Shown piece after piece: positions 13,213 through 16,772 of a DNA stretch of 22,538 nt. Numbering within the stretch: the first letter of the stretch is position 1; every line of letters begins with the position of its first letter. This DNA comes from a virus (Duplodnaviria; Heunggongvirae; Uroviricota; Caudoviricetes): IMG/VR virus record IMGVR_UViG_2667527827_000002; one strand, given 5' to 3'. Both the position numbers and the translations under genes were made by a program. The notes under the pieces are model-generated. The model was given only the letters and a program-made list of their open reading frames with translations, did no database searches and was not told where the DNA came from.

Positions 13213-13433
13213 GCCGCACCTCCGAGATGCTTCATGTTTTTTCCGGAGCGAAAGGCTATAAGCGGCATACTGACGCGGTAATTACGGCCCAGCGGTTCAC
13301 AAATCACCTTCTGACATTCACGGTCAACCAGGCTAACACGTAGAACATGCCCTGCAGGCGTGGTGTACCACTGACCGGGGCGAGGACAACGGAAAGTCTG
13401 ATTGGTAAATCGTTTGAAAATATTCCGGATCAT
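13209..13433 (-). CDS. Hypothetical small phage protein (74 aa)
   Basis: ORF with ATG 13431-13433 overlapping the Rha stop (ATGA), and its own stop overlapping the O-like start (ATGA). No recognisable domain; supported mainly by coupling and operon context. Confidence 0.5.
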   Translation of the reverse strand: MIRNIFKRFTNQTFRCPRPGQWYTTPAGHVLRVSLVDRECQKVICEPLGRNYRVSMPLIAFRSGKNMKHLGGAA

Positions 13434-14578
13434 TTGCGCCCCCTTACCTCTGAAGAGTTCAGCGACGAATGAATAAGACGGGCAAGAAATGCCGCATCGT
13501 TAATTCGGTCATACAGACTTACAGCCAGAGGTGATTCAGCTTTTTCCAGCATGGGATAAAGCTGCTGCAACCAGACCTGATGAATTGATGAAATGTAGGA
13601 ATAGAGAACGCTGGCGTTATGTGCAACGTCGCTCGGTACAGCGGGCTTTGAAAGCTGTTTCTCCATCTGGTTAAAGGCATTGATGTATGCCTCTTTGAAC
13701 TGGGCAGCACGTTTACCCGTGAAACCCATAGCAAGAAACGCAAAGCCGTCGCGGGTTATTTGATAGCAAGGTAGTTTGCGGCCTGTGCAATCGGTGTAAT
13801 CACTCACCGAAAAATTGCGGGCAGTGAATGATGCGGAACATTCAAGCGTGCGGATCTTTTTCAGTACATCGTCATGACGTTTGGAGAAGAAGTTGGCAAC
13901 AGCCAGGGATGAAGTAACAGCCTGACCATCAACGATGGCAATTTCAGGTTGAGTGAGGGTTGGGATCGTAGCCATGATGGCAGTCTCCGATAACAGTGAA
14001 TTACCTTCACCACCGGAAACGCCAATTTCGCTGGTGGTGAACTGAACGGGGTTGGCGTAACCGGCGTTATCGGAAACCGGCGCACCTTTCGGTGCCCCCG
14101 TCCAGCCCACCATAATTTGGGTGTGCACAGACGCAGACGATAAAAAAGACGCTGGCGCGTCATATATCGCCGATAACATTTCCAGGACGCCAATCCCGAC
14201 ACCCGCTTTATAAGGTGCCTGAACAGTGTAACGTCCCGGAATGGCAGAATCAATGTGCTGGTGGTCCTTCACACTCAACAAAATCACGCCTGAATTTCCA
14301 CAAAGGACTAAAGCACTCATGCGGGTAGTCTTTGCGAAGATAGATAACGCGCTGTGTTTCTGGCTCCCAACGAATAACATGGACATAAAGCCCTCTTCCG
14401 TCACGAAACCAGCGGTTAAGTTCCTGCACAACTCGCCCCCCACAGTCAGGTAAAGTTCTCTGTGGTTACTTACAGCCAGGTGATTTGGTAATCTGCATTC
14501 ATGCCGTAACAACAGGTGTTCAGCGACGCTGACCACCAGCTGTTGCGACAAACGGTTATTTGCCGTTAAACTGTTCAT
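13430..14578 (-). CDS. Rha-family phage regulatory protein with an unusual ~200-aa N-terminal extension (alternative: Rha alone from internal ATG 13975)
   Basis: 382-aa open frame. ATG 14576-14578 overlaps the stop of the upstream CII-position gene (ATGA). The Rha/ORF6N-like domain (…AIVDGQAVTSSLAVANFFSKRHDDVLKKIRTLE…CYQITRDGFAFLAMGFTGKRAAQFKEAYINAFNQMEKQL…) occupies residues about 205-305. An internal ATG at 13973-13975 has GGAG 9 nt upstream. Confidence 0.7.
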   Translation of the reverse strand: MNSLTANNRLSQQLVVSVAEHLLLRHECRLPNHLAVSNHRELYLTVGGELCRNLTAGFVTEEGFMSMLFVGSQKHSALSIFAKTTRMSALVLCGNSGVILLSVKDHQHIDSAIPGRYTVQAPYKAGVGIGVLEMLSAIYDAPASFLSSASVHTQIMVGWTGAPKGAPVSDNAGYANPVQFTTSEIGVSGGEGNSLLSETAIMATIPTLTQPEIAIVDGQAVTSSLAVANFFSKRHDDVLKKIRTLECSASFTARNFSVSDYTDCTGRKLPCYQITRDGFAFLAMGFTGKRAAQFKEAYINAFNQMEKQLSKPAVPSDVAHNASVLYSYISSIHQVWLQQLYPMLEKAESPLAVSLYDRINDAAFLARLIHSSLNSSEVRGRK

Positions 14579-15138
14579 GCGTTAGTTTCTCCACAGACAC
14601 AAAACGCCACGACGCCCGGAGCTGCACACTCGCGGGCGTCACTCTTTTCTGGAGCGCAAAAGATTTTGTAGACCAGTGCTGCATGCTCCTGGAGCTTCGA
14701 AATTGACAGATACAACTCATCATTAATTGCTGTCTGCTCGTGTGGCTCCACTACCCCATCTTCGATTGCCGAACGAATCTGCTTTGAGTAACTCCCGATC
14801 TGTTCGATGACTTCCAGCAGGCGCTGGTTTATATCGGCGTTCTCTACTTCCTCAAGTTCAGGAAGCGATACAAACACCCCACCAGCAGACTGTGCGACAG
14901 CATCCGCAATGTAGTGAGTGCCAGCCGCGCGCTGTAAAATCATTGCCCATCCCAGCGGGAAAATCTGATCGCCATCTGCACGAAGGCGGTTGAATAAAGC
15001 GTTCTCTGTTACATCCAGCCACTCAGCAGCTTCAGCGTAACCTCCCGGCAACGCCGCGATAGTTTTTCTGACAGCTTTCACGTACCACTCAGGCTGTTTT
15101 TCTACTTTCCAGTGATGCTTACCCACGGTTAGCCTCAT
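14575..15138 (-). CDS. Phage regulatory protein in the CII position (possibly YdaT/CII-like family)
   Basis: 187-aa ORF directly downstream of the Cro-like gene. ATG 15136-15138 has no obvious SD. The family assignment is tentative, based on position and size only. Confidence 0.6.
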   Translation of the reverse strand: MRLTVGKHHWKVEKQPEWYVKAVRKTIAALPGGYAEAAEWLDVTENALFNRLRADGDQIFPLGWAMILQRAAGTHYIADAVAQSAGGVFVSLPELEEVENADINQRLLEVIEQIGSYSKQIRSAIEDGVVEPHEQTAINDELYLSISKLQEHAALVYKIFCAPEKSDARECAAPGVVAFCVCGETNA

Positions 15139-15169
15139 CGTTCTGTGGTTAAAAATTGAAGGTGTTCTG

Positions 15170-15370
15170 TTAATCTTTCGGATAGATATCCGGTCTTAAG
15201 TCAGATTTCGTAATTGCACCTGACGTGCATTGCTCAAGTTTTTTAGCCAGCACAAAACTGGCTTTTTTATAACCATTGAAAACCAGCCGTAAGTAGCCTG
15301 GTGTTGAGCCAACTTTTCCGGCCAACTCGCCCTGCTGTTCTTTGGTTAAAGAGTCCCAATACGCTTTCAT
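15170..15370 (-). CDS. Cro-like HTH regulator (YdaS/Cro family-like)
   Basis: 66 aa from ATG 15368-15370 with GGAGG 10 nt upstream. HTH-like …LAGKVGSTPGYLRLVFNGYKKASFVLAKKLE… Divergent from the repressor gene. The 167-aa track ORF is an upstream read-through across the operator region. Confidence 0.7.
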   Translation of the reverse strand: MKAYWDSLTKEQQGELAGKVGSTPGYLRLVFNGYKKASFVLAKKLEQCTSGAITKSDLRPDIYPKD

Positions 15371-15372
15371 AC

Positions 15373-15444
15373 AATATGTACCTCCGATATACATATTACA
15401 TGATTGAGATGAACCTTCAAGATACTTGTACCCTATCGGTACAA
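15373..15444. promoter_or_regulatory. Immunity-region operators and divergent promoters (OR/PR/PRM analogue)
   Basis: O1 15373-15397 is aatatgta-N9-tacatatt and overlaps a candidate Cro promoter -10 (TAATAT on the minus strand = plus 15393-15398; -35 TTGAAG = plus 15415-15420). O2 15426-15444 is ttgtacc-ctatc-ggtacaa and overlaps a candidate -35 for a leaderless repressor transcript starting near 15461. Confidence 0.55.
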
Positions 15445-15460
15445 AGGTTTTAATTTCGTT

Positions 15461-16135
15461 ATGAAAACAGTCCATGACATCCGGCGGTCTAACGCCAGAA
15501 AACTGAGAGATGGTGTTGGCGGGAATTCTTCCTTTGCCACCATGATTGATCGCGAGCCAACCCAGACCAGCAGGTTTATGGGAGATGGTGCTACTAAAAA
15601 TATCGGTGACAGCATGGCACGGCACATCGAAAAATGTTTCGACCTGCCTGTCGGATGGCTTGATCAAGAACACCAGACAACAAACATCACAAAAAAACCT
15701 GATGTTTCAATTACTAACAAACAAATAACGTTAGTCCCTGTCATATCATGGGTACAGGCCGGAGCATGGAAAGAAGTTGGCTATTCTGAGGTTGATTTGA
15801 GCACAGCAGAAACTTATCCCTGCCCTGTACCCTGTGGCGAAATGACTTATATCTTGCGGGTGATTGGTGATTCAATGATTGATGAGTACCGCCCGGGAGA
15901 CATGATTTTTGTTGATCCTGAAGTCCCTGCCTGCCACGGTGACGACGTTATTGCATTGATGCACGATACAGGCGAAACCACCTTCAAGCGGTTGATAGAA
16001 GATGGAACACAGCGTTACCTCAAAGCATTAAACCCAAACTGGCCTGAACCTTACATTAAGATCAACGGTAATTGCTCTATAATTGGTACAGTGATTTTCT
16101 CAGGAAAACCAAGAAGATACAAAATAAAGGCCTAA
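15461..16135 (+). CDS. CI-like prophage repressor with C-terminal S24 (LexA-like) autopeptidase domain
   Basis: 224 aa. C-terminal domain …VIGDSMIDEYRPGDMIFVDPE…GETTFKRLIEDGTQRYLKALNPNWPEP… closely parallels lambda CI/LexA, with the Ser in GDSM, the Lys in TFKRL and a candidate Ala-Gly cleavage site (…VQAGAW…). ATG sits at the end of the operator region, consistent with a leaderless mRNA. Confidence 0.9.
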   Translation: MKTVHDIRRSNARKLRDGVGGNSSFATMIDREPTQTSRFMGDGATKNIGDSMARHIEKCFDLPVGWLDQEHQTTNITKKPDVSITNKQITLVPVISWVQAGAWKEVGYSEVDLSTAETYPCPVPCGEMTYILRVIGDSMIDEYRPGDMIFVDPEVPACHGDDVIALMHDTGETTFKRLIEDGTQRYLKALNPNWPEPYIKINGNCSIIGTVIFSGKPRRYKIKA

Positions 16136-16147
16136 TCAATATTTATA

Positions 16148-16170
16148 ACCTGCTTCGGCAGGTTTTTTTA
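16148..16170 (+). terminator. Rho-independent terminator after the repressor gene
   Basis: cctgc-ttcg-gcagg hairpin (16149-16162) followed by tttttttat (16163-16170), 13 nt after the repressor stop. Confidence 0.7.
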
Positions 16171-16173
16171 TAC

Positions 16174-16201
16174 TTGACAATGTACCCTTGAGATACATAA
16201 T
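16174..16201 (+). promoter_or_regulatory. PL-like early-left promoter with embedded operator O3
   Basis: -35 TTGACA (16174-16179), 16-bp spacer, -10 CATAAT (16196-16201). The spacer and -10 contain atgtacccttgagatacat (16180-16198), which matches O1 (atgtacctccgatatacat) at 15 of 19 positions. Confidence 0.55.
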
Positions 16202-16619
16202 GTATCTAAAAGAAACATAACACAGGCAAGATTAAACTAAATTTGGTTGTAACACGGCGTATGGCACATGCGTCGTTAGCGGTCTGGGGACGTTAAAGGG
16301 GACAATCCACTCCTTGCTCGAGCAAACAAACCAGGTAGCCGGAATGTGCAAGTCAATGATGATGCTGATAAGACGCCTAACCAGCGTGGCGATTCGGTTT
16401 GACGCCTGGGAAGAGACCAGGGTGCAACGATGAGGGCATTTATGGAACCGCGACAAAGTGTGGTGCCGTAACTGGCTAAGTGCTCTCAGCGTTGTGGTGA
16501 ATGCGCAGGCTGATGCGCGAAAGACATTGCAGCTATTGCGGAAAAGAGCTGTTCGGCGGGGCAATTAAACGCCCGTGAGAGTCTGAAATAACCGCAAGCC
16601 GGAGATCAGCACCGGTCAC

Positions 16620-16685
16620 CACAACAGCCACTGCTTTGGCGGTACCAGTTTGTACACTTGCTTCCGGCTGGTACCGCTCTTTTTA
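16620..16685 (+). ncRNA. Candidate DicF-like leader-derived sRNA ending at an intrinsic terminator (tentative)
   Basis: 10-bp perfect inverted repeat gcggtaccag (16639-16648) / ctggtaccgc (16668-16677) followed by tcttttt. The 5' arm region TTTGGCGGTACCAGTTTGTAC resembles the DicF core as I recall it (UUUGGCGGUAUCAGUUUUAC). Lies in the early-left leader, as dicF lies downstream of dicA in Qin. The recollection is unverified. Confidence 0.3.
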
Positions 16686-16690
16686 CAAAA

Positions 16691-16772
16691 CAGAGAAGAG
16701 CATCACCGGACGACGGGCTCATAACCCAATCCATCCGGGCGGCTGCCACCGCAGGTGTTCTTCTCTGTTTTG
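16691..16772 (+). terminator. Second large terminator-like structure in the early-left leader
   Basis: Closing stem cagagaaga (16691-16699) / tcttctctg (16759-16767), extendable to about 14 bp, followed by ttttg. It encloses about 50 nt with internal GC-rich sub-hairpins (ccgga…tccgg, gcgg…ccgc). Lies about 50 nt upstream of the first early-left gene. Confidence 0.35.

What the first reader, a model, noticed from the sequence alone, without database searches (positions are those of the whole stretch)
15373..16201. Three related ATGTAC-core operator palindromes linking the CI/Cro switch to the PL-like promoter
O1 and O3 are near-identical 19-mers (15 of 19 identical, ATGTACC-N7-TACAT) placed over the Cro promoter -10 and the PL spacer/-10 respectively. 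O2 is a different-spacing variant (TTGTACC-N5-GGTACAA) over the candidate repressor promoter. This reads as a minimal bistable switch with only one or two operators per side.
Basis: seen in the sequence. Interest (0 to 1): 0.4.

Follow-up and report, generated by a model that had tools for sequence, protein, structure and literature searches.

The report
Prophage e14/SfV-type repressor operator sites
The three palindromes are real binding-site candidates for the repressor of a well-known E. coli/Shigella prophage type (e14, SfV). They all share one 19-bp design and belong to a conventional set of five sites (three plus two), so this is an ordinary lambda-like switch, not a minimal one.

Summary
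The three 19-mers exist: O1 15376-15394, O2 15426-15444, O3 16180-16198. A joint pattern finds 3 sites where 0.03 are expected by chance. The region is the cI/cro immunity cassette of prophage e14 (ymfK/ymfT), phage SfV, SfIV, cdtI and Stx2c phages, at 95-99% DNA identity. The SfV GenBank record already marks exactly 15376-15444 as a 'putative operator region'.

- O2 is not a spacing variant. All three sites are xTGTACC-N5-GRTACAx.
- The switch is not minimal. In 29 related loci (repressor 61-100% identical) five sites sit at fixed spacing.

Half-sites stay invariant while the N5 centres of O2 and O3 drift. A matrix trained only on 23 non-E. coli/Shigella relatives ranks these five sites as the top five hits in the 22.5-kb window.

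Promoter placement (inferred unless stated):
- O1 covers the PR start and the cro ribosome-binding site.
- O2 covers the -35 and spacer of the repressor promoter. Its leaderless transcript is shown experimentally for e14 ymfK.
- O3 fills the PL spacer.

This is an already annotated, lambda/933W-like three-plus-two operator layout. No binding data were found. Interest is low.

The parts
15170..15370 (-). cro-like gene (ymfT/croE homologue), 66 aa, YdaS-type helix-turn-helix
   Evidence: ORF. Pfam YdaS_toxin/HTH_3 and PHROG 'transcriptional repressor'. 98% identical to e14 YmfT. Annotated cro in SfV.
15376..15394 (.). O1 (the PR-proximal operator): ATGTACC-TCCGA-TATACAT. Covers the predicted PR start and the cro Shine-Dalgarno GGAGG (15381-15385, minus strand).
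   Evidence: PWM score 19.4, third best in the window. Half-sites conserved in 29 loci; the centre keeps TCC, which is the SD on the other strand.
15393..15398 (-). Predicted PR -10 (TAATAT on the minus strand). Its last 2 nt are the outer 2 nt of O1.
   Evidence: Read from the sequence. Relatives have CATAAT, TATAAT or TAGAAT at the same place. 8/12 with the -35, so below the scan threshold. Inferred, no TSS data.
15409..15427 (.). Contains the predicted PR -35 (TTGAAG on the minus strand, 15420->15415). Centred about 43 nt upstream of the cI start. Overlaps O2 by 2 nt.
   Evidence: 2 mismatches to the consensus. PWM score 9.4, fifth best in the window against 4.6 for the sixth. Left half ATGAACC is near-invariant: exact in 25 of 29 loci, including the non-consensus A at position 4. 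Always 33 nt after O1 and 17 nt before O2. The right half is less conserved.
15426..15444 (.). O2 (the PRM-proximal operator): the perfect palindrome TTGTACC-CTATC-GGTACAA. Its left half doubles as the PRM -35 (TTGTAC 15426-15431).
   Evidence: PWM score 22.6. Half-sites invariant and the 5-nt centre freely variable across 29 loci.
15449..15454 (+). Predicted PRM -10 (TTTAAT), 17 nt after TTGTAC and 6 nt before the A of the cI ATG, which gives a leaderless cI mRNA
   Evidence: An nnnAAT hexamer is conserved 6-9 nt before the ATG with no usable SD in relatives. e14 ymfK mRNA is shown by differential RNA-seq to have a leader under 10 nt (PMC4681348).
15461..16135 (+). cI repressor (ymfK/cohE homologue), 224 aa: N-terminal DNA-binding domain plus S24 autopeptidase domain
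   Evidence: Pfam Peptidase_S24, E 1.5e-26. CTD matches the lambda cI CTD in PDB. An NTD profile matches the phage SPC32H repressor NTD 5d50, E 1.7e-8. VQAG (98-101), GDSM (136-139) and K176 are invariant.
16147..16171 (+). Intrinsic terminator after cI
   Evidence: 7-bp stem, T run. Annotated terminator in SfV and Ayreon. Conserved in relatives.
16174..16201 (+). PL-like promoter: TTGACA, 16 nt, CATAAT (11 of 12)
   Evidence: Annotated promoter in phage Ayreon. TTGACA and CATAAT are near-invariant in 29 loci.
16180..16198 (.). Fills the PL spacer and the first 3 nt of the -10.
   Evidence: PWM score 22.7, best in the window. Half-sites invariant, centre variable.
16200..16218 (.). Starts at the last 2 nt of the PL -10 and covers the predicted start (about 16208).
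   Evidence: 2 mismatches. PWM score 12.0, fourth best. Left half is ATGTACC in most relatives, always 20 nt after site a. The right half is weak or variable (GAAACA, GATACA, GGAAC) and absent in a few loci.
14575..15138 (-). cII-like gene (ymfL homologue), context of the PR operon
   Evidence: Pfam Phage_CP76. PHROG CII-like activator.

Best explanation
The palindromes are the operators of the cI/cro immunity switch of an e14/SfV-type lambdoid prophage. A dimeric helix-turn-helix repressor (CI, RecA-cleavable through its S24 domain), and probably Cro too, recognises a 19-bp dyad, xTGTACC-N5-GGTACAx.

There are five sites, not three.

Between cro and cI:
- O1 sits on the PR start and the cro ribosome-binding site.
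- A deliberately off-consensus middle site sits on the PR -35.
- O2 sits on the -35 and spacer of PRM, the promoter that makes a leaderless cI mRNA.

After the cI terminator, two abutting sites bracket the -10 of PL.

Inferred logic:
- In a lysogen, CI at O1 plus the middle site and at the two OL sites shuts PR and PL.
- Occupancy of O2, by excess CI or by Cro, shuts PRM.
- SOS cleavage of CI releases PR and PL.

Shown here: the sites, their geometry, their conservation, their overlap with promoter elements, and the protein domains. Shown in the literature: the leaderless ymfK transcript. Inferred: who binds which site, in what order, and any cooperativity or PRM activation from the middle site.
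For: - Site statistics: 3 strict sites against 0.03 expected. The only 5 hits within 2 mismatches in 22.5 kb all lie in the two regulatory gaps.
- A half-site matrix trained only on 23 non-E. coli/Shigella relatives ranks exactly these five as the top five in the window: 22.7, 22.6, 19.4, 12.0 and 9.4, with the next hit at 4.6.
- Phylogenetic footprint in 29 loci from Escherichia, Shigella phage, Hafnia, Edwardsiella, Klebsiella, Pantoea, Rahnella, Serratia, Proteus and others (CI 61-100% identical). Spacing is identical throughout (33, 17 and 20 nt). Half-sites are invariant. The N5 centres of O2 and OLa are free.
- Promoters: PL scores 11/12. The PRM geometry is conserved, and the e14 ymfK mRNA is leaderless by dRNA-seq (PMC4681348).
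- Proteins: the S24 domain, VQAG, GDSM and K176. The NTD is homologous to a solved phage repressor DNA-binding domain. Cro is a YdaS-type HTH.
- Prior annotation: the SfV record marks 15376-15444 as 'putative operator region'.
- The immunity cassette's mosaic junction lies at about 16231-16235, just past the second OL site.
- A distant Variovorax homologue has a different 11-mer in the same 3+2 layout.
Against: - No binding, footprint or reporter data for this repressor were found. No open-access paper in the library prints these sequences.
- The two extra sites are weak. As isolated hits anywhere in 22.5 kb, their scores arise by chance in 9% and 21% of simulated windows.
- The right half of the middle site and of OL site b drifts in relatives, and OL site b is absent in a few loci.
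- Conservation of the middle site could partly reflect the PR -35 it contains.
- PR scores only 8/12 and has no mapped start site.
- The middle site and O2 overlap by 2 nt, so simultaneous occupancy is unproven.
Confidence: 0.78

Rival explanations
1. One reading: a minimal switch with just three operators. One sits on PR, one spacing-variant sits on PRM, and one sits on PL.
For: The three strong sites score far above the other two (19-23 against 9-12). The weak sites' right halves are poorly conserved.
Against: O2 has the same 19-bp geometry as the others. The left halves of the two extra sites, ATGAACC and ATGTACC, and their exact distances are kept in essentially all 29 loci, although neighbouring non-site bases drift. 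They are the fourth and fifth best matrix hits in the whole window and lie directly beside strong sites. A distant homologue with another operator sequence also shows 3+2 copies.
Confidence: 0.12
2. The conserved blocks are only promoter and translation signals (-35, -10, SD) of PR, PRM and PL. The dyad symmetry is incidental and no dedicated repressor reads it.
For: Every site overlaps a promoter hexamer or the cro SD. TTGTAC doubles as the PRM -35, the AT ends double as -10 ends, and TCC in O1 is the SD.
Against: The same 7-nt half-site recurs ten times in inverted pairs at a fixed 12-nt offset at three different promoters. GTACC and GGTAC lie in promoter spacers, where sigma-70 promoters impose no sequence. 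The variable N5 centre flanked by invariant arms is the signature of a dimeric DNA-binding protein. A repressor and a Cro are encoded on either side.
Confidence: 0.04
3. O2 acts as an RNA hairpin or intrinsic terminator, or the sites are LexA (SOS) boxes read by the host repressor.
For: The terminator scan lists 15426-15444 as a stem-loop followed by a T-rich tail. e14 functions are SOS-inducible (bioRxiv 10.1101/2020.11.19.390815).
Against: The T-rich tail is not kept in relatives (CTAACTATT, GGATGTCT). The arms never vary, so there is no compensatory change to support RNA pairing. The dyad has TGT and ACA 11 nt apart, not the CTGT-N8-ACAG of SOS boxes (established knowledge). The same source states that the e14 division inhibitor is not under LexA control.
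Confidence: 0.02

Closest known systems
Immunity region of prophage e14 (ymfK/cohE, ymfT/croE) and phages SfV, SfIV, cdtI, Ayreon and Stx2c phages
   Same: The same cassette. DNA is 95-99% identical over cro, the OR gap, cI, the terminator and PL. CI differs from e14 YmfK by one residue, and Cro is 98% identical. All five sites are at the same positions. The SfV GenBank record marks 15376-15444 as 'putative operator region'.
   Different: Small allelic differences inside the sites. The right half of O1 is TATACAT here and in SfV, against TGTACAT in e14 K-12. The O2 centre is CTATC against TTAAC. The left half of OL site b is ATGTATC here, against ATGTACC in e14 and SfV. DNA downstream of about 16232 comes from a different mosaic module.
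Bacteriophage lambda OR/OL switch (CI, Cro, PR, PRM, PL)
   Same: Divergent cI and cro around a tripartite OR. The same operator type recurs at PL. CI carries an S24 domain with a VQAG cleavage site like lambda's. The cI mRNA is leaderless (PMC4681348). The middle site is centred about 43 nt upstream of the PRM start, comparable to lambda OR2 (lambda position from established knowledge).
   Different: The dyad is 19 bp with a GTAC core rather than 17 bp. OL has two sites, not three. Centre-to-centre spacings are 33 and 17 bp, with a 2-nt overlap, instead of 24 and 23 bp. The PR-proximal site lies on the start and the SD rather than on the -10. The best palindrome sits on PRM, not on PR. OL is only about 0.8 kb from OR. 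Cro is a YdaS-type HTH. No N homologue is reported for SfV/SfIV (PMC3851460).
Shiga-toxin phage 933W operator layout
   Same: Three operators at OR and only two at OL, as reported for 933W (Tyler et al. 2004, as summarised in PMC8065619).
   Different: An unrelated immunity type. The 933W operator sequences and repressor were not compared here. For 933W binding was measured; here it was not.
Salmonella phage SPC32H repressor (PDB 5d50)
   Same: The N-terminal 77 residues are homologous to the CI N-terminal domain family of this locus (profile E 1.7e-8).
   Different: The C-terminal part is unrelated. SPC32H Rep has no S24 domain and is inactivated by an antirepressor (from memory of Kim et al. 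2016, not checked here). Its operators were not compared.

Membership tests
Lambdoid CI/Cro immunity switch | Divergently transcribed repressor and cro genes flanking a short gap with several copies of one operator | tested here: met
   cro 15170-15370 (-) and cI 15461-16135 (+), with a 90-nt gap holding three dyads.
Lambdoid CI/Cro immunity switch | Repressor = N-terminal HTH DNA-binding domain plus C-terminal S24 (LexA-like) self-cleaving domain with an Ala-Gly site and a Ser/Lys dyad | tested here: met
   Peptidase_S24 E 1.5e-26. Lambda cI CTD hits. VQAG 98-101, GDSM Ser138 and Lys176 are invariant. The NTD has no Pfam HTH hit, but its profile matches the repressor NTD 5d50 at E 1.7e-8 and phage CI NTDs 7nkv/8c3l. 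Cleavage itself was not tested.
Lambdoid CI/Cro immunity switch | The same operator type at a second early promoter (PL) on the far side of cI | tested here: met
   Two dyads bracket the -10 of an 11/12 promoter after the cI terminator.
Lambdoid CI/Cro immunity switch | Operators overlap PR, PRM and PL so that occupancy excludes RNA polymerase | tested here: inconclusive
   The PL overlap is clear. The PRM position fits the experimentally leaderless ymfK transcript (PMC4681348). PR is only an 8/12 prediction supported by conservation. No start-site data exist for PR or PL.
Lambdoid CI/Cro immunity switch | CI and Cro both bind the operators, with opposite preference orders and cooperative CI binding | not testable with these tools
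   Needs EMSA, footprinting or reporter assays. No published data were found.
e14/SfV immunity group (same immunity specificity) | Near-identical repressor, Cro and operator sequences | tested here: met
   CI differs from e14 YmfK by one residue (V4I). Cro is 98% identical. The half-site cores are identical in the window, SfV and e14. 1,327 E. coli records carry at least 80% of the cassette.
LexA/SOS box | CTGT-N8-ACAG 16-bp dyad | tested here: not met
   The dyad is TGTACC-N5-GGTACA, with TGT and ACA 11 nt apart. The SOS-box consensus is from established knowledge.

The most novel reading that the evidence does not exclude
The switch may be wired differently from lambda in a way conserved across Enterobacterales.
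- The only perfect palindrome sits on the repressor's own promoter, not on PR.
- The PR-proximal site acts at the start and ribosome-binding site rather than at the -10.
- A conserved, deliberately off-consensus site (A instead of T at position 4 in 28 of 29 loci) overlaps the PRM site by 2 nt. The two could be mutually exclusive or bound on opposite faces of the helix.

This geometry could give a toggle between PRM activation and PRM repression within 36 bp. It would be a compact alternative to lambda's OR2/OR3 plus long-range looping.
Probability: 0.2. Interest if true: 0.35.

Novelty: already known. Interest (0 to 1): 0.15.

Why it matters
The practical value is modest. The work gives a cleaner and transferable operator model: a 19-bp dyad, five sites, and their promoter overlaps. 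It applies to an immunity type carried by about a quarter of complete E. coli genomes (1,324 of 5,426 hold at least 80% of the cassette), by E. coli K-12 itself (e14), and by serotype-converting, Cdt and Stx2c phages. That could help predict superinfection immunity and SOS-induced toxin or division-inhibitor expression. It could also guide simple footprinting or reporter experiments. It does not open a new kind of mechanism.

Tried and rejected
- Small ORF. The conserved ATGAACC might have started a 14-codon ORF (15409-15453). Rejected: Symbiopectobacterium L025 has an in-frame stop at codon 9, the frame runs on in L018 and L021, and there is no SD.
- O2 as a terminator hairpin (flagged). Rejected: the T tail is not conserved and the arms show no covariation.
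- A lambda-like operator in the PR spacer at 15396-15414, by analogy with PL. No match to the dyad.
- Rfam search of the PL leader 16100-16900. Only a sub-threshold STnc50 hit (22 bits against a gathering score of 55).
- Literature. The SfV genome paper (Allison et al. 2002) and the e14 analysis (Mehta et al. 2004, PMC331406) are not held, so I could not check how many operators their authors proposed. A full-text search for the operator sequences found nothing. A search by PDB codes was uninformative.
- Pfam on the CI N-terminal 89 residues. No family, even at E 10. Homology was recovered only with a profile against PDB.
- No structure prediction was run, because the profile match was judged sufficient for the question.

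Full report
**What is in the sequence**

Reading 14400-17200 and listing ORFs shows a classical divergent pair.
- A 66-aa gene lies on the minus strand (15170-15370).
- A 224-aa gene lies on the plus strand (15461-16135).
- After it come an intrinsic terminator (16147-16171) and an 11/12 sigma-70 promoter: TTGACA 16174-16179, a 16-nt spacer, CATAAT 16196-16201.

- O1, 15376-15394: ATGTACCTCCGATATACAT
- O2, 15426-15444: TTGTACCCTATCGGTACAA
- O3, 16180-16198: ATGTACCCTTGAGATACAT

A pattern that covers all three (WTGTAC-N7-RTACAW) hits only these places in 22,538 bases. Chance expectation is 0.03, and 0 of 100 dinucleotide shuffles reach the observed count.

**First correction: one geometry, not two**

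Written in the same frame, all three sites are 7+5+7.
- ATGTACC-TCCGA-TATACAT
- TTGTACC-CTATC-GGTACAA
- ATGTACC-CTTGA-GATACAT

O2 is the perfect version of the same dyad, not a different-spacing variant.

**Second correction: five sites, not three**

Allowing up to 2 mismatches to WTGTACC-N5-GRTACAW adds exactly two more hits in the whole window. Both lie inside the same two regulatory gaps.
- 15409-15427: ATGAACCTTCAAGATACTT. It lies between O1 and O2 and shares 2 nt with O2.
- 16200-16218: ATGTATCTAAAAGAAACAT. It lies one base after O3.

**Identity of the locus**

- The plus-strand protein has a Peptidase_S24 domain (E 1.5e-26).
- The minus-strand protein is a YdaS-type HTH.
- The next gene in the PR operon is a CII (CP76)-like regulator.
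- Megablast shows that the 1.2 kb around the finding is 95-99% identical to several known elements: the immunity regions of phages cdtI, Ayreon, 2H10, SfV and SfIV, a series of Stx2c phages, and E. coli ymfT-ymfK of prophage e14. At least 80% of the stretch is present in 1,324 of 5,426 complete E. coli genomes.
- The SfV GenBank record (U82619) annotates cI, cro, a terminator and a 'putative operator region'. Transferred to window coordinates, that region is exactly 15376-15444, from the first base of O1 to the last base of O2.
- Phage Ayreon annotates the promoter after the terminator.
- The SfIV genome paper states that these genes encode cI and Cro, identical to those of SfV (PMC3851460).
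- cohE/ymfK is treated in the literature as the SOS-sensitive CI-like repressor of e14 (bioRxiv 10.1101/2020.11.19.390815; PMC8249747).

So the finding concerns a known, annotated immunity region.

**Comparative test of the sites**

Distant blastn recovered two diverged phage cassettes, Hafnia phage yong2 and Edwardsiella phage EPP-1, at about 70-74% DNA identity. In both, the match runs from O1 to just past 16216.

A scan of species-representative genomes with a CI alignment gave 24 more loci. They come from Klebsiella, Leclercia, Pantoea, Rahnella, Serratia, Proteus, Symbiopectobacterium and others, with CI 61-100% identical.

In all 29 loci the five sites occur at the same distances: O1, +33, +17; and OL site a, +20. 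The conservation profile has the shape expected for a dimeric DNA-binding protein.
- The arms xTGTACC and GGTACAx are essentially invariant. Among 138 trained half-sites, G3, T4 and A5 never vary.
- The 5-nt centres of O2 and of OL site a change freely.
- The centre of O1 keeps TCC because it is the cro Shine-Dalgarno GGAGG on the other strand.
- The left half of the middle site, ATGAACC, is nearly invariant, including its departure from consensus at position 4. Its centre keeps CAAG, which is the TTG of the PR -35 on the other strand. Its right half is more variable.
- The left half of OL site b is ATGTACC in most relatives. Its right half (GAAACA, GATACA or GGAAC) is weak and missing in a few loci.

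A half-site weight matrix was trained only on O1, O2 and OL site a of the 23 relatives outside the E. coli/Shigella e14-SfV-type loci. It ranks the five sites as the five best 19-mers in the window: 22.7, 22.6, 19.4, 12.0 and 9.4, with the sixth at 4.6.

Taken alone, scores of 12.0 and 9.4 arise somewhere in a random 22.5-kb sequence in 9% and 21% of simulations. The case for the two weak sites therefore rests on their position beside strong sites and on their positional conservation.

**Promoters**

PL:
- The promoter is explicit.
- Site a fills the spacer and the first 3 nt of the -10.
- Site b begins with the last 2 nt of the -10 and covers the predicted start, about 16208.

PRM:
- TTGTAC (15426-15431, the left half of O2), then 17 nt, then TTTAAT (15449-15454), then 6 nt, then the A of the cI ATG.
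- The hexamer nnnAAT is kept 6-9 nt from the ATG in relatives, with no usable SD.
- This predicts a leaderless mRNA. Differential RNA-seq in E. coli K-12 lists ymfK of e14 among only five mRNAs with leaders under 10 nt (PMC4681348).

PR (minus strand):
- The best candidate is TTGAAG (15420->15415), then 16 nt, then TAATAT (15398->15393).
- It scores only 8/12 here. Relatives have CATAAT, TATAAT or TAGAAT at the same place and keep the TTG.
- O1 overlaps only the last two bases of that -10. It mainly covers the predicted start (about 15386) and the SD.
- The PR operator arrangement mirrors PL site b: in both cases the outer AT of the dyad is the end of the -10.
- The PR and PL start sites are inferred, not measured.

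**Proteins**

- The CI C-terminal domain matches lambda cI, UmuD and LexA structures.
- It has VQAG (98-101), GDSM and Lys176, all invariant in the relatives aligned.
- The N-terminal 89 residues hit no Pfam family.
- A profile of 19 N-terminal domains matches the N-terminal domain of the phage SPC32H repressor (5d50, E 1.7e-8) and two 'phage repressor protein CI' entries.
- Cro matches solved 'Cro' entries only weakly (E 0.01), but it has a YdaS/HTH_3 signature.

**Mechanism proposed**

- CI dimers, and probably Cro dimers, read the 19-bp dyad.
- In the lysogen, CI on O1 and the middle site blocks PR at the start and at the -35. CI on the two OL sites blocks PL on both sides of the -10.
- O2 occupancy blocks PRM. 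This gives negative autoregulation by CI, and shut-off of cI by Cro in lytic growth.
- RecA-stimulated self-cleavage at Ala100-Gly101 relieves repression.
- The middle site is centred about 43 nt upstream of the cI start. That is the position from which lambda CI at OR2 activates PRM (established knowledge). Activation here is speculation.
- The 2-nt overlap of the middle site with O2 (17 bp centre to centre) puts the adjoining half-sites on roughly opposite faces of the helix. Whether both can be filled at once is unknown.
- Everything about binding order and cooperativity is inferred.

**Supporting context**

- The immunity-specific DNA ends just after OL site b. SfV and e14 homology to the window stops at about 16231. 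Phages with other immunities (mEp460, Stx2a phages) start to match at about 16235.
- A distant homologue in Variovorax (N-terminal domain 34% identical) carries a different 11-mer, TAGCRWWACGC. Three copies lie in the divergent gap and two lie around a TTGACA after the cI terminator, where 0.01 copies are expected by chance. The 3+2 layout may therefore be a trait of the wider family.
- The same site counts are reported for phage 933W (PMC8065619).

**Verdict**

- The 'different spacing' and 'minimal switch' claims are wrong.
- The feature is the already annotated operator region of the e14/SfV immunity type, laid out like a conventional lambdoid switch.
- I found no experimental mapping of these operators. 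The two papers most likely to discuss them are not held, and no open-access text prints the sequences.
- Interest is low. The refined five-site model is a useful but incremental annotation.

Noticed in passing
window 14030-14218 (-), inside ORF 13430-14578 (-): Rfam finds a C4 antisense RNA (14030-14117, 82.8 bits) and an isrK RNA (14142-14218, 61.5 bits). Both lie inside the 382-aa ORF whose residues 117-212 Pfam calls 'Ash protein family'; a Rha domain follows. This looks like a P1 immI-type, RNA-controlled Rha/antirepressor module just downstream of the cII-like gene. The long ORF, and perhaps the Ash match, may be a translation across RNA genes.
   Followed up: partly
window 16241-16300: A 60-nt stretch of the PL leader is 95-97% identical to P1, P7 and related plasmid-prophages. 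In P1 it lies at 71010-71069, directly after the tRNA-Ile gene and upstream of ban, in unannotated DNA. The function is unknown. No Rfam family reaches its threshold there.
   Followed up: partly
window 16201-16821: About 620 nt lie between PL and the first clear ORF (16822-17184, PHROG of unknown function). They hold no convincing gene and no N-like antiterminator gene. Relatives carry a different module here, beginning ACAGGCAGGACGCCCACGAAGTAGCC.
   Followed up: no
window 5715-5724 and 1069-5703 (-): A run of ten N marks a scaffold join. To its left is a 1544-aa BigA-like adhesin ORF, which looks like host DNA. Phage homology (mEp460, cdtI) starts at 5725.
   Followed up: partly
L030 (Variovorax paradoxus) 1426-1487 and 2326-2361: A distant cI homologue has five copies of TAGCRWWACGC. 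Three lie between cI and the divergent gene, and two lie around a TTGACA after the cI terminator. This is the same 3+2 layout with an unrelated operator sequence.
   Followed up: partly
window 15421-15432 and the same place in L009-L020: Where the middle site abuts O2, many relatives form a tight everted palindrome, AAGGTAC-TT-GTACCTT, made of the two inward-facing half-sites. The window has the weaker AAGATAC-TT-GTACCCT. It may matter for whether both sites can be occupied at once.
   Followed up: no
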